Source: Bacilli bacterium (GTDB lineage Bacteria > Bacillota_I > Bacilli_A > RFN20 > CAG-826). Taken from it: a DNA stretch of 64,000 bases. Under the pieces are notes generated by a model. The model saw only the letters and a program-made list of their open reading frames with translations, ran no database searches and was not told where the DNA came from. This document shows positions 49,396 through 49,952 of this stretch, one piece after another. A program made the position numbers and the translations under genes. The stretch lies in assembly GCA_017502465.1 (NCBI GenBank), contig JAFVUY010000119.1, positions 31,583 through 95,582 on the forward strand. Reading direction: 5' to 3'. Each line of letters begins with the position of its first letter. The first letter of the stretch is position 1.

Positions 49396-49952
49396 TGGCG
49401 ACAGGGGTGGGATTCGAACCCACGGAGCCTTGCGGCTCGACGGTTTTGAATTCGTAATCAGTAATTTTTAATTACCTCCTCAAATAAAAAATCTTTAGCA
49501 AAAGAAATATTTTTTACTTGTCCAGTTTTAGTAGGAATTAATCTTAAAGTTTTTTCTTTAAGTCCTTTTTCTGGCGCTGGATACAAGTAAAAAATACCTT
49601 CTTTTTCAGTCATAAAAAAATCAATTTCTTTATTAGTATATTTCATTACTTTATTGCCAGAACCAATAGAGTGCTAGCTATAGCAATTAAACATAAAAGC
49701 ACTATGCTCTTCATCTTTCCAATGAGAAGTTTTTACTTGTATTTTTAATAAATTTTTACCAGTATCAAGTATAAAATCATATCTTGCATTATCAAACAAT
49801 GGTTTAGATACAATATATCCAGATTCGATACATTTTAAAAAACATTTCTGCTCTGTTAAAGCACCTTTAATTTGAGTATTTTCCATAATAAATTAAACTA
49901 CTATGATGTTGAAATTCAAGACCGCTCGATTAAACCACTCTCGCACCCTGCC
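49396..49952 (-). tRNA. tRNA-Ser (UGA)-like gene interrupted by a ~0.5-kb insertion carrying a PD-(D/E)XK-like endonuclease gene
   Basis: 5' part (about 49915-49952): GGCAGGG-UG-CGAGAGUGGUUUAAUCGA-GCGGU-CUUGAA. 3' part (49396-49445): ..AAA-ACCGU-C-GAGCCGCAAGGCUC-C-GUGGGUUCGAAUCCCAC-CCCUGUC-G-CCA. The anticodon arm GCGGU-CUUGAAA-ACCGU nearly matches E. coli tRNA-Ser(UGA). Long variable arm; G73. The junction does not obey the group I U-then-G rule. Confidence 0.45.
49458..49886 (-). CDS. PD-(D/E)XK-like endonuclease (~143 aa, one TAG) inside the tRNA-Ser insertion
   Basis: ORFs 49674..49886 and 49458..49646 join through a TAG (..FMFNCYS-TAG-HSIGSGNKVMKYTN..). Motif YDFILDTGKNLLKIQVK fits D...(E/Q)xK. 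A paralogue sits at 58267..58680 (YDLVIEKNGKFYRIQVK). Confidence 0.5.

What the first reader, a model, noticed from the sequence alone, without database searches (positions are those of the whole stretch)
49396..49952. tRNA-Ser(UGA)-like halves split by an endonuclease-bearing insertion whose junction does not fit group I rules
The reconstructed tRNA (acceptor 7 of 7, anticodon arm GCGGU-CUUGAAA-ACCGU, long variable arm, G73) is almost identical in its anticodon arm to E. coli tRNA-Ser(UGA). No placement of the junction both ends the 5' exon in U and ends the insertion in G. Either a non-canonical or twin-ribozyme splice is used, the insertion is at a non-anticodon-loop position that was misjudged, or the tRNA is inactivated by the mobile element.
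Basis: seen in the sequence. Interest (0 to 1): 0.65.

Follow-up and report, generated by a model that had tools for sequence, protein, structure and literature searches.

The report
Ribozyme-less endonuclease insertion splitting phage tRNA
A phage tRNA-Ser gene is split, right after its anticodon, by a 469-base mobile cassette that carries only a homing-endonuclease gene and no self-splicing RNA; its last bases pair with the anticodon, which suggests an undescribed, protein-dependent way of removing tRNA introns in bacterial viruses.

Summary
Window 49952..49396 (minus strand) holds two halves that join into an 88-nt tRNA-Ser(UGA), separated by 469 nt. The insert is almost entirely one ORF of 142 codons. 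It belongs to Pfam PDDEXK_5, the I-Ssp6803I homing-endonuclease family. It is intact if its single TAG is read as Gln, and this phage recodes TAG. It is not a group I intron. Only 40 nt are non-coding, no Rfam ribozyme matches at E<=10, and no structure is conserved inside the ORF. A sister copy splits the window's tRNA-Asp gene. I found 36 distinct copies in gut and rumen phage tRNA arrays, in Ser, Asp, Asn, Val, Ile and Pro tRNAs, plus one Ser-like tRNA with a UAA anticodon. All are 452-484 nt. Where the junction can be resolved, it lies between nt 36 and 37. Near-identical genomes with and without the sister element show that it is mobile. All copies keep a covarying 8-bp helix that extends the anticodon stem, in which the intron's last three bases pair with the anticodon. 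The phage encodes an RNA ligase and end-healing enzymes. Protein-dependent excision and religation is my best reading, but it is inferred. An inactivated tRNA remains a serious rival.

The parts
49916..49952 (-). 5' exon of tRNA-Ser(UGA), nt 1-36, ending with anticodon base A36
   Evidence: Sequence. The junction at 36/37 is taken from relatives. In this copy alone, 35/36, 36/37 and 37/38 give the same product because of the A run.
49447..49915 (-). 469-nt insertion: 29-nt leader, 142-codon ORF plus stop codon, 11-nt tail
   Evidence: No Rfam ribozyme at E<=10. The family length range is 452-484 nt.
49396..49446 (-). 3' exon of tRNA-Ser(UGA), from A37 to the encoded CCA
   Evidence: ARAGORN calls Ser(UGA), 88 nt, on the joined exons.
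49458..49886 (-). Homing-endonuclease gene, PDDEXK_5 / I-Ssp6803I family, 142 aa, stop codon TGA at 49460..49458
   Evidence: PF11645 E=4.3e-26, above the curated cut-off. phrog_5018 E=2.8e-20. PDB 2OST E=2.5e-10. Y36, D37, Q50 and K52 are invariant across the family. An identical protein is on 5 metagenome contigs.
49674..49676 (-). In-frame TAG (codon 71), read as sense, probably Gln
   Evidence: It aligns with Q (CAA/CAG) in orthologues L001-L003, which carry TAGs of their own at other positions. Protein domains elsewhere in the window span in-frame TAGs. Many long ORFs merge when TAG is read through.
49912..49919 (-). 5' strand of the closing helix: U33 U34 G35 A36 plus intron nt 1-4 (UUGA|AUUU)
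   Evidence: Present in the MFE fold. Pairing and covariation measured over 35 distinct copies.
49446..49453 (-). 3' strand of the closing helix: the last 7 intron nt plus A37 (GAAUUCA|A). The last three intron bases, UCA, pair with anticodon UGA.
   Evidence: In relatives the three terminal bases change with the host anticodon.
49884..49905 (-). Small hairpin that includes the ORF start codon (CAUAGUAG-UUUAAU-UUAUUAUG)
   Evidence: Predicted in the MFE fold. I saw comparable hairpins by eye in relatives in the sequences. A function in translational control is inferred only.
58217..58763 (-). Sister element. tRNA-Asp(GUC) is split at 36/37 by a 470-nt insertion (58726..58257) with a homologous ORF (58680..58267, TTG start).
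   Evidence: The two ORFs are 30% identical, E=4e-18. The joined exons give tRNA-Asp(GUC). The MFE fold shows the same helix architecture.
48936..49010 (-). Amber-suppressor tRNA(CUA) with a Gln-like acceptor end and G73, needed to translate the endonuclease ORF
   Evidence: ARAGORN. Rfam tRNA 57.1 bits.
22234..23712 (-). Phage RNA ligase, a candidate sealing enzyme (link to the insertion is inferred)
   Evidence: phrog_968 'RNA ligase' E=1.4e-62 over the full length. TIGR02306 E=1.2e-12. Weak Pfam RNA_ligase and PHA02142 OB-fold hits. Weak PDB hit to the Naegleria RNA ligase.
17538..18655 (-). Adjacent phosphoesterase (17538-18152) and P-loop kinase of the AAA_33 type (18149-18655), candidate end-healing enzymes (link is inferred)

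Best explanation
The insertion is a compact mobile cassette. It consists of a homing-endonuclease gene of the I-Ssp6803I (PD-(D/E)XK, Pfam PDDEXK_5) family, 29 leader bases and 11 trailing bases. It sits exactly between nt 36 and 37 of a phage tRNA-Ser(UGA) gene.

Shown:
- It is one copy of a family that colonises the same position in at least six tRNA species in gut and rumen phages.
- The family spreads at the DNA level. Empty and occupied alleles of the sister element exist in phage genomes that are 99% identical.
- It contains no ribozyme.
- Every copy conserves an 8-bp RNA helix stacked on the anticodon stem. The pairs are U33-A37, anticodon nt 34-36 with the last three intron bases, and intron nt 1-4 with the four bases before those.

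Inferred:
- The helix holds the cloverleaf together, masks the anticodon and places both splice sites at fixed positions, 3 bp apart on opposite strands.
- Proteins then cut the pre-tRNA at these two sites and rejoin it.
- The sealing step is done by the phage's own RNA ligase, with its kinase and phosphoesterase if the ends need healing.
- The nuclease is unknown. Candidates are a host double-strand RNase or the cassette's own endonuclease.
- Translation of the endonuclease needs the phage amber suppressor. It must also compete with helix formation, because the stop codon lies 4 nt before the helix's 3' strand.
For: Anatomy.

No ribozyme:
- 40 non-coding nt, against about 200 nt of ribozyme in the 655-nt Synechocystis tRNA-fMet intron with its 150-aa ORF (PMC1995217, Table 1).
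- No Rfam ribozyme hit.
- No excess conservation at synonymous sites.
- No covarying structure inside the ORF.

Family:
- 13 IMG/VR loci and 40 metagenome loci.
- 36 distinct copies of 452-484 nt. 31 of them give a canonical tRNA when joined at 36/37, and 3 of the 5 failures are cut by contig ends.
- The junction is fixed by tRNA body identity in Val(UAC), Ile(GAU) and Asn(GUU) hosts.

Mobility: L142 and L143 (empty site) are 99.2-99.7% identical to L013 (occupied) in the flanks.

Helix:
- 91.2% of cells are paired, against 54.8% in shuffles (0 of 500 reach the observed value).
- The covariation score is 0.90, against 0.22 in shuffles and 0.09-0.23 when the partners are slid.
- All 8 helix pairs are formed in at least 32 of 35 copies, and 7 of the 8 covary, each with 3-5 pair types.
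- The three terminal intron bases follow the host anticodon: UCA for Ser, GUA for Val, AUC for Ile, GGC for Asp, AGC for Asn, CUG for Pro.
- A helix needed only by the cassette would not have to pair with exon bases.

Sealing enzymes are encoded in the window.

In this array of 25 uninterrupted tRNA genes, tRNA-Asp and tRNA-Ser(UGA) exist only as split genes.
Against: - No RNA data. Splicing was not observed.
- The element moves often, so intact exons may only reflect recent insertion.
- No protein-only tRNA splicing is known in bacteria or phages (my knowledge).
- No nuclease that cuts a plain helix with a 3-nt stagger could be assigned. RNase III leaves 2 nt (my knowledge).
- No bulge-helix-bulge motif can be drawn.
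- RNA repair genes are common in phages with many tRNA genes, so their presence is not specific. The ligase co-occurrence test was uninformative.
- L010 carries the endonuclease gene with only a 5' tRNA half, next to a complete replacement tRNA-Ser. L016 and L024 have degenerate hosts. So non-functional copies exist.
- L004 has a Ser-like body with anticodon UAA, and the helix is kept by a compensating change. This shows the helix can be selected independently of correct decoding.
- The helix alignment was anchored partly by searching for the helix, which inflates the percentage of paired cells.
Confidence: 0.5

Rival explanations
1. The insertion is never removed and the tRNA gene is dead. 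The cassette is a selfish homing-endonuclease gene that uses phage tRNA genes as safe, highly transcribed landing sites. The helix and the intact cloverleaf serve the cassette: RNase P and 3'-end processing would release an mRNA whose ends are locked in an acceptor stem, and the helix would control translation.
For: - Recent mobility means intact exons carry little information.
- L010, L016 and L024 are degenerate copies.
- In L004 the helix is kept although the anticodon no longer fits the tRNA body.
- Phage tRNA genes are often dispensable (my knowledge).
- No splicing machinery could be identified.
Against: - A helix that served only the mRNA could be built from cassette sequence alone. Instead its 3' end is re-tuned to each host anticodon, and the helix starts exactly at nt 33.
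- All 7 loop bases are kept without loss or duplication in six tRNA species.
- The only tRNA-Asp and tRNA-Ser(UGA) genes of this array are the split ones.
Confidence: 0.3
2. Excision without religation, as with the RNase III-processed intervening sequences of bacterial 23S rRNA. A double-strand RNase cuts the closing helix, the endonuclease mRNA is released, and two tRNA halves remain, either held together by their stems or discarded.
For: - The insert is closed by a stem of 13 pairs plus one mismatch (anticodon stem plus helix).
- ORF-bearing, helix-closed intervening sequences are known in rRNA (my knowledge).
Against: - A tRNA nicked in the anticodon loop is not expected to decode (my knowledge).
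- The helix is short for RNase III.
- The exact preservation of the 7-nt loop would have no purpose.
Confidence: 0.08
3. The insertion splices itself, through a very degenerate group I core, a twin ribozyme, or an unknown small ribozyme overlapping the ORF.
For: - Homologous endonuclease genes sit in genuine group I introns of bacterial tRNA-fMet and tRNA-Arg genes (PMC13011429, section 9).
- The sister Asp copy can be drawn with U35 at -1 and a terminal G.
Against: - Only 40 non-coding nt.
- No Rfam hit at E<=10 or E<=1.
- No covarying structure and no synonymous-site constraint in the ORF.
- At the 36/37 junction the 5' exon ends in A, C, G or U depending on the host, and the intron ends in A, C or G.
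- The 35/36 reading of the Asp copy is contradicted by the Val and Ile hosts.
Confidence: 0.05
4. Assembly artefact or chimeric contig.
For: None.
Against: The same arrangement, with an identical protein, is on 5 independent contigs. Dozens of diverged copies exist.
Confidence: 0.01

Closest known systems
Group I intron of the Synechocystis PCC 6803 tRNA-fMet gene, which encodes I-Ssp6803I; also the PF11645-bearing group I introns of bacterial tRNA-Arg(UCU)
   Same: The endonuclease family is the same (PF11645; PDB 2OST at E=2.5e-10). The target is the anticodon loop of a tRNA gene. The element is mobile by homing.
   Different: - That intron is 655 nt with a 150-aa ORF, so it has about 200 nt of ribozyme (PMC1995217). 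It sits at 33/34 (PMC13011429).
- The element here is 469 nt with 40 non-coding nt and sits at 36/37.
- It has no ribozyme, U(-1) or terminal G.
- It is found in phages and in six tRNA species.
Protein-spliced tRNA introns of archaea and eukaryotes (bulge-helix-bulge or ruler recognition, usually at 37/38)
   Same: There is no ribozyme. The intron pairs with the anticodon loop and extends the anticodon stem. The cloverleaf is kept. The position is one base away from the canonical site. Removal would need an endonuclease and a ligase.
   Different: - No 3-nt bulges can be drawn; the helix is continuous.
- The site is 36/37.
- The host domain has no known splicing endonuclease.
- The insertion carries a PD-(D/E)XK homing-endonuclease gene.
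'Enigmatic introns' of Lak megaphage tRNA genes (Devoto et al., bioRxiv 10.1101/356790)
   Same: These are interrupted tRNA genes in TAG-recoded gut phages with an unknown removal mechanism. The paper says the introns were tested against Rfam and reports no classification.
   Different: Those introns are reported without any endonuclease gene, and that paper does not mention endonucleases. The short 59-nt insert in this window's tRNA-Gln looks like that class, but it sits at 35/36.
Free-standing homing-endonuclease genes in phage tRNA regions (for example T5 F-TflI/II/IV, from memory); stand-alone PDDEXK_5 genes counted in Jug phages (PMC12880540)
   Same: These are endonuclease genes without a ribozyme, associated with phage tRNA clusters and moving between related phages.
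   Different: Those lie between genes. This one lies inside the anticodon loop and carries a host-matched pairing segment.
ORF-bearing intervening sequences of bacterial 23S rRNA excised by RNase III (from memory)
   Same: These are helix-closed insertions in a structural RNA gene, sometimes with an ORF, removed by a protein nuclease.
   Different: rRNA tolerates fragmentation, whereas a tRNA anticodon loop should not. No anticodon-matched pairing is involved there.

Membership tests
Group I intron | Conserved catalytic core (P3-P9) detectable by covariance models | tested here: not met
   No group I or other ribozyme hit at E<=10 in 49300-50050, or at E<=1 in 11 related loci.
Group I intron | Enough non-coding RNA for a core (the smallest bacterial tRNA introns are about 184-205 nt) | tested here: not met
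   29 + 11 = 40 non-coding nt. The length range comes from PMC13011429. RNAalifold finds no covarying structure in the ORF.
Group I intron | 5' exon ends in U (U-G pair in P1) and the intron ends in G | tested here: not met
   Enumerating the junctions on the sequence gives no such placement. At 36/37 the 5' exon ends in A (Ser), C (Asp, Val), G (Pro) or U (Asn, Ile), and the intron ends in A, C or G.
Group I intron | Self-splicing in vitro with a guanosine cofactor | not testable with these tools
PDDEXK_5 / I-Ssp6803I homing endonucleases (the ORF) | Match to PF11645 above the curated cut-off | tested here: met
   92 bits against a cut-off of 26.1, covering residues 3-135 of 142. PDB 2OST E=2.5e-10.
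PDDEXK_5 / I-Ssp6803I homing endonucleases (the ORF) | Catalytic D ... QxK motif conserved | tested here: met
   YD(36-37) and IQVK(49-52) align with YD and VQVK of 2OST. They are invariant in alignments A1 and A2. That these residues are catalytic is from memory.
PDDEXK_5 / I-Ssp6803I homing endonucleases (the ORF) | Site-specific cleavage of the intron-less tRNA gene | not testable with these tools
   Needs the purified protein and a target such as the L005-type tRNA-Ser gene.
Mobile (homing) element | Occupied and empty alleles in otherwise near-identical genomes, with precise boundaries and no target duplication | tested here: met
   Shown for the sister Asp-type element. L013 is 99.2-99.7% identical to L142 and L143 in the flanks, and the insertion is delimited with a 1-nt ambiguity. 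For the Ser copy only a more distant uninterrupted allele was found (L005). The three places shown among nine contigs with the identical neighbouring gene all carry the insertion.
Archaeal/eukaryal-type protein-spliced tRNA intron | Bulge-helix-bulge motif (two 3-nt bulges 4 bp apart) at the splice sites | tested here: not met
   The conserved pairing is a continuous 8-bp helix after the 32x38 mismatch, with both splice sites inside it. I could draw no alternative with bulges.
Archaeal/eukaryal-type protein-spliced tRNA intron | Splicing endonuclease (EndA/Sen) available | tested here: inconclusive
   No such domain was found among about 45 window ORFs scanned. Only 64 kb of the phage was seen, and the host was not.
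tRNA-Ser(UGA) (the exons) | Cloverleaf with long variable arm, UGA anticodon in a 7-nt loop, G73 | tested here: met
   ARAGORN on the joined exons. Near-identical uninterrupted homologue in L005.

The most novel reading that the evidence does not exclude
These cassettes would be a third kind of tRNA intron and the first protein-only tRNA splicing system of the bacterial and phage world. In it, the intron's own PD-(D/E)XK homing endonuclease would also act as the splicing nuclease.

The RNA helix is an RNA copy of the left half of the enzyme's DNA target (nt 27-36 and their complement). The two splice sites flank the anticodon triplet with a 3-nt 3' stagger. As I recall, unverified here, Bonocora and Shub (2001) reported the same geometry for I-Ssp6803I on DNA.

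A metal-dependent cut would leave 3'-OH and 5'-phosphate ends, which the phage's ATP-dependent RNA ligase could seal directly.
Probability: 0.12. Interest if true: 0.95.

Novelty: new variant of a known kind. Interest (0 to 1): 0.74.

Why it matters
- Bacterial and phage tRNA introns are thought to be self-splicing. Protein-spliced tRNA introns are considered a hallmark of archaea and eukaryotes.
- This is a widespread family of ribozyme-free, endonuclease-bearing insertions at one fixed position of the anticodon loop, each carrying a segment matched to its host's anticodon.
- If they are spliced, phages have a splicing route that has not been described. It could also explain the 'enigmatic' tRNA introns reported in Lak megaphages.
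- If they are not spliced, selfish genes routinely destroy phage tRNA genes while exploiting the tRNA fold.
- Either answer is directly testable with this sequence.
- Standard tRNA finders miss these genes or mislabel them. Phage tRNA inventories are therefore undercounted.

Tried and rejected
- Group I, twin-ribozyme or any Rfam ribozyme: no hits in permissive scans of the locus or of 11 related loci.
- A ribozyme hidden in the ORF: synonymous sites are not unusually conserved. RNAalifold on 12 copies supports only the closing helix.
- Bulge-helix-bulge drawing: not possible at 36/37 or at neighbouring registers.
- RNase III geometry: a 2-nt stagger cannot give a 7-nt loop from this helix. 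I worked this out by hand.
- An opal-suppressor reading (anticodon UCA if spliced further 5'): rejected. Val, Ile and Asn hosts fix the junction at 36/37, and L005 carries UGA.
- Deposited phage genomes: only tRNA-sized matches, no relative of the element.
- Genome collection of 185,579 species: no relative with the patterns used.
- The broader protein alignment A2 could not be used for locus searches.
- RNA-ligase co-occurrence with element-bearing contigs: uninformative, because only the top 80 of 249 hits are returned and none overlaps.
- Empty-site allele of the Ser copy in the same phage: not found. All three places shown carry the insertion.
- Second tRNA-Ser(UGA) elsewhere in the genome: not checkable beyond the window. 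One look-up failed, and the other lies within the window.
- ORF-less derivatives at 36/37: not found. ARAGORN short-intron calls in the loci were mostly chained neighbouring tRNAs.
- The 59-nt insert of tRNA-Gln was not found in IMG/VR.
- The I-Ssp6803I primary papers (PMC1864971, PMC3008403) are not held, so its cleavage pattern is cited from memory only.
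Full report
**What is there**

The window is part of a phage genome. A tRNA gene array lies on the minus strand from about 45.8 to 60.4 kb. ARAGORN finds 25 uninterrupted tRNA genes, and Rfam finds a ROOL RNA and a drum RNA inside the array.

At 49952..49396 two tRNA halves flank a 469-nt insertion. Joined, they give an 88-nt tRNA-Ser(UGA):
- acceptor stem with 7 of 7 pairs
- anticodon arm GCGGU-CUUGAAA-ACCGU
- long variable arm, G73 and an encoded CCA

A 518-kb viral contig (L005) carries an uninterrupted tRNA-Ser(UGA). It differs from the joined halves only by paired changes in the acceptor and variable stems.

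**The ORF and the genetic code**

The insert is 29 nt of leader, a 142-codon ORF (49886..49458) and 11 nt of tail.
- The ORF matches Pfam PDDEXK_5 (PF11645) at E=4e-26.
- It matches the solved structure 2OST, which from memory is I-Ssp6803I, at E=2.5e-10. The YD and QxK motifs align.

The ORF has one in-frame TAG (49676..49674).
- That codon aligns with Gln codons in three orthologues, which carry TAGs of their own at other positions.
- Two other orthologues need TGA read as Trp instead.
- Elsewhere in the window, single protein domains span in-frame TAGs: GIY-YIG over codon 29 and a GDSL lipase over codon 324. A PIN-PhoH protein is complete only if its TAG is read through.
- Many long ORFs merge when TAG is read through, and few do for TGA.
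- An amber-suppressor tRNA(CUA) with Gln-like features lies 440 nt downstream.

So the phage reads TAG as sense. The endonuclease gene is intact, and its translation depends on the suppressor.

**It is not a group I intron**

- Only 40 nt are non-coding. The Synechocystis tRNA-fMet intron that encodes I-Ssp6803I is 655 nt with a 150-aa ORF (PMC1995217). Bacterial tRNA group I introns range from 184 to 894 bp, and only those above 500 bp carry endonuclease genes (PMC13011429).
- Permissive Rfam scans give no ribozyme hit at the locus (E<=10) or in 11 related loci (E<=1).
- Synonymous sites in the ORF are not unusually conserved.
- RNAalifold on 12 copies supports no structure inside the ORF.

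**A family, its position and its mobility**

ARAGORN with introns allowed finds a second large insertion in the window. A tRNA-Asp(GUC) gene (58763..58217) is split by 470 nt that carry a homologous ORF (30% identity, E=4e-18).

- Searches with the protein found 13 loci in IMG/VR and 40 in metagenomes (human gut, rumen and others), nearly all inside phage tRNA arrays.
- None was found in 185,579 species genomes with the patterns used.
- The protein has 524 relatives at E<=1e-5 in the large protein collection.

I curated 36 distinct copies.
- Insert length is 452-484 nt, median 467.5.
- 31 give an ARAGORN tRNA when joined at 36/37.
- They are 13 Asp, 12 Ser(UGA), 2 Asn, and one each of Val, Ile and Pro, plus one Ser-like body with anticodon UAA.
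- Three of the five failures are cut by contig ends.

In the window's own copy the junction is ambiguous because of a run of A. Hosts whose body identity is clear resolve it. L036 is tRNA-Val(UAC), L039 is tRNA-Ile(GAU) and L037/L038 are tRNA-Asn(GUU), but only if the 5' exon ends at nt 36. L030 also limits the Ser type to 35/36 or 36/37.

For the Asp-type element, contigs L142 and L143 carry the uninterrupted gene. Their flanks are 99.2-99.7% identical to occupied L013, and the insertion is delimited to within one base. The element is therefore a discrete insertion that has moved recently.

**The conserved RNA feature**

In both window copies the minimum-energy fold keeps the cloverleaf. It extends the anticodon stem, past the 32x38 mismatch, by 8 bp.

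The pairs are:
- U33 with A37
- nt 34, 35 and 36 with the last three intron bases
- intron nt 1-4 with the four bases before those

In the window this is 49919..49912 paired with 49453..49446.

Measured over 35 distinct copies:
- 91.2% of cells pair, against 54.8% in shuffles (0 of 500 reach the observed value).
- The covariation score is 0.90, against 0.22 in shuffles and 0.09-0.23 when the partners are slid by 1-3 columns.
- All 8 helix pairs are formed in at least 32 of 35 copies, and 7 of the 8 covary, each with 3-5 pair types. The two positions beyond them are mostly unpaired.

The three terminal intron bases track the host anticodon: UCA for Ser, GUA for Val, AUC for Ile, GGC for Asp, AGC for Asn and CUG for Pro.

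Caveat: the register was found partly by looking for the helix. This inflates the percentage paired, but it does not explain the dependence on the anticodon.

Consequences of this arrangement:
- Both splice sites lie inside the helix, 3 bp apart on opposite strands.
- The anticodon triplet would be left as a 3' overhang after cutting.

**Mechanism: what is shown and what is inferred**

Shown:
- an intact homing-endonuclease gene
- a fixed insertion site
- mobility
- absence of a ribozyme
- a selected RNA helix that includes exon bases

Inferred: the helix is the recognition structure for protein-catalysed excision and religation.

In favour:
- A helix serving only the cassette would not need to be re-tuned to each anticodon or to start exactly at nt 33.
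- The 7-nt loop is preserved exactly.
- The array's only tRNA-Asp and tRNA-Ser(UGA) genes are the split ones.
- The window encodes a set of RNA repair enzymes:
  - an RNA ligase (phrog_968 E=1e-62, TIGR02306 E=1e-12)
  - a P-loop kinase and two phosphoesterases
  - an RlaP-type nucleotidyltransferase
  - a Thg1-like enzyme
  - a cyclic-phosphate-processing receiver domain

Against:
- There are no RNA data.
- No nuclease could be assigned, and no known enzyme has this geometry.
- Repair genes are common in phages with many tRNA genes.
- The element moves often enough that intact exons say little.
- Degenerate copies exist (L010, L016, L024).
- In L004 the helix is kept by a compensating change although the anticodon (UAA) no longer fits the Ser-like body.

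| Explanation | My confidence |
|---|---|
| Protein-dependent splicing | about 0.5 |
| Unspliced, inactivated tRNA whose fold serves the cassette | about 0.3 |
| Excision without religation | about 0.08 |
| Cryptic ribozyme | about 0.05 |

**Comparison with what is known**

The ORF is a member of the I-Ssp6803I family, whose known bacterial members sit in genuine group I introns. Those are in tRNA-fMet at 33/34 and in tRNA-Arg(UCU) (PMC13011429).

The insertion fails every group I criterion that I could test. It works most like an archaeal or eukaryal tRNA intron: the intron pairs with the anticodon loop, there is no ribozyme, and the position is next to the anticodon. But it lacks the bulge-helix-bulge motif and sits at 36/37.

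Lak megaphage tRNA genes were reported to contain 'enigmatic introns' with no endonuclease mentioned (bioRxiv 10.1101/356790). PDDEXK_5 genes were counted as stand-alone genes in Jug phages (PMC12880540). My literature searches found no description of this ribozyme-free, anticodon-pairing cassette. The library is incomplete, so this is not proof of novelty.

**Verdict**

The finding is real and more interesting than first stated. It is a new variant of an endonuclease-bearing tRNA insertion whose removal, if it happens, cannot use any described bacterial mechanism. One RNA-seq mapping or a simple in-vitro assay would decide between splicing and gene inactivation.

Noticed in passing
window 50747-50880 (-): A tRNA-Gln(UUG)-like gene carries a 59-nt ORF-less insert exactly between U35 and G36 (loop CUUU|59 nt|GAC; the uninterrupted L012 Gln gene has CUUUGAC). 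The ends of the insert form a 7-bp stem next to a 3-nt bulge. The site and geometry differ from the endonuclease cassettes. It resembles the 'enigmatic introns' of Lak phage tRNA genes. A 20-mer from it was not found in IMG/VR.
   Followed up: partly
window 50448-50573 (-): An odd Tyr-like tRNA. ARAGORN models it with a 39-nt intron. The Rfam tRNA score is 27.4 bits, below the family threshold, and the alignment has a 24-nt anticodon loop and a long extra arm. Its nature is unresolved.
   Followed up: partly
window 49044-49107 (-); 44152-45708 (-): A tRNA-like module matches the Y RNA-like family YrlA (E=1.8e-4, below threshold). An overlapping 82-nt stretch (window 49040-49121) is 77-85% identical to unannotated stretches of Caulobacter, Xanthomonas and Xylella phages. 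A Ro/TROVE-like 'RNA-binding protein' gene (phrog_850, DUF2828/DUF7788) lies nearby. Weak YrlA hits also occur in related loci L007 and L010.
   Followed up: partly
window 56681-57355 (-) and 51543-51652 (-): A ROOL RNA (305 bits) and a drum RNA (79 bits) are embedded in the tRNA array. Both are large non-coding RNAs of unknown function (my knowledge).
   Followed up: no
window 17538-30670 (-): A loose cluster of RNA repair genes: phosphoesterase, AAA_33 kinase, RNA ligase, a second phosphoesterase, RlaP nucleotidyltransferase, Thg1-like enzyme, cREC_REC domain protein and a tRNA-amidotransferase-like protein.
   Followed up: partly
window 46264-47007 (-), 23709-24353 (-): Further free-standing homing-endonuclease genes. 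One is GIY-YIG, with an in-frame TAG inside the catalytic domain. The other is HNH, directly beside the RNA ligase gene.
   Followed up: no
window 53373-53446 (-) and 60242-60337 (-): ARAGORN calls one tRNA with a four-base anticodon (aaag). A second gene, a 96-nt tRNA-Ile(UAU), is about 20 nt longer than the window's other Ile tRNA genes.
   Followed up: no
L010:1440-2037: A 5' half of tRNA-Ser and an intact endonuclease ORF (59% identity) are present without a matching 3' half. A complete tRNA-Ser(UGA) follows directly, with the unusual loop CCUGAAA (C33). This looks like a degenerate copy plus a possibly cleavage-resistant replacement gene.
   Followed up: partly
L004:2929-3484: This copy sits in a Ser-like tRNA body (G73, Ser-type D arm) whose anticodon reads UAA. 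The intron's pairing base changed from C to U to match. The ORF needs TGA read as Trp. L011 also needs TGA read through, so the family crosses phages with different recodings.
   Followed up: partly
window 49187-49423 (-): A small ORF (78 aa from a GTG start) begins inside the 3' exon of the tRNA-Ser gene. Contigs of the same phage call a shorter 59-aa gene downstream of the endonuclease gene. It has no family match.
   Followed up: no
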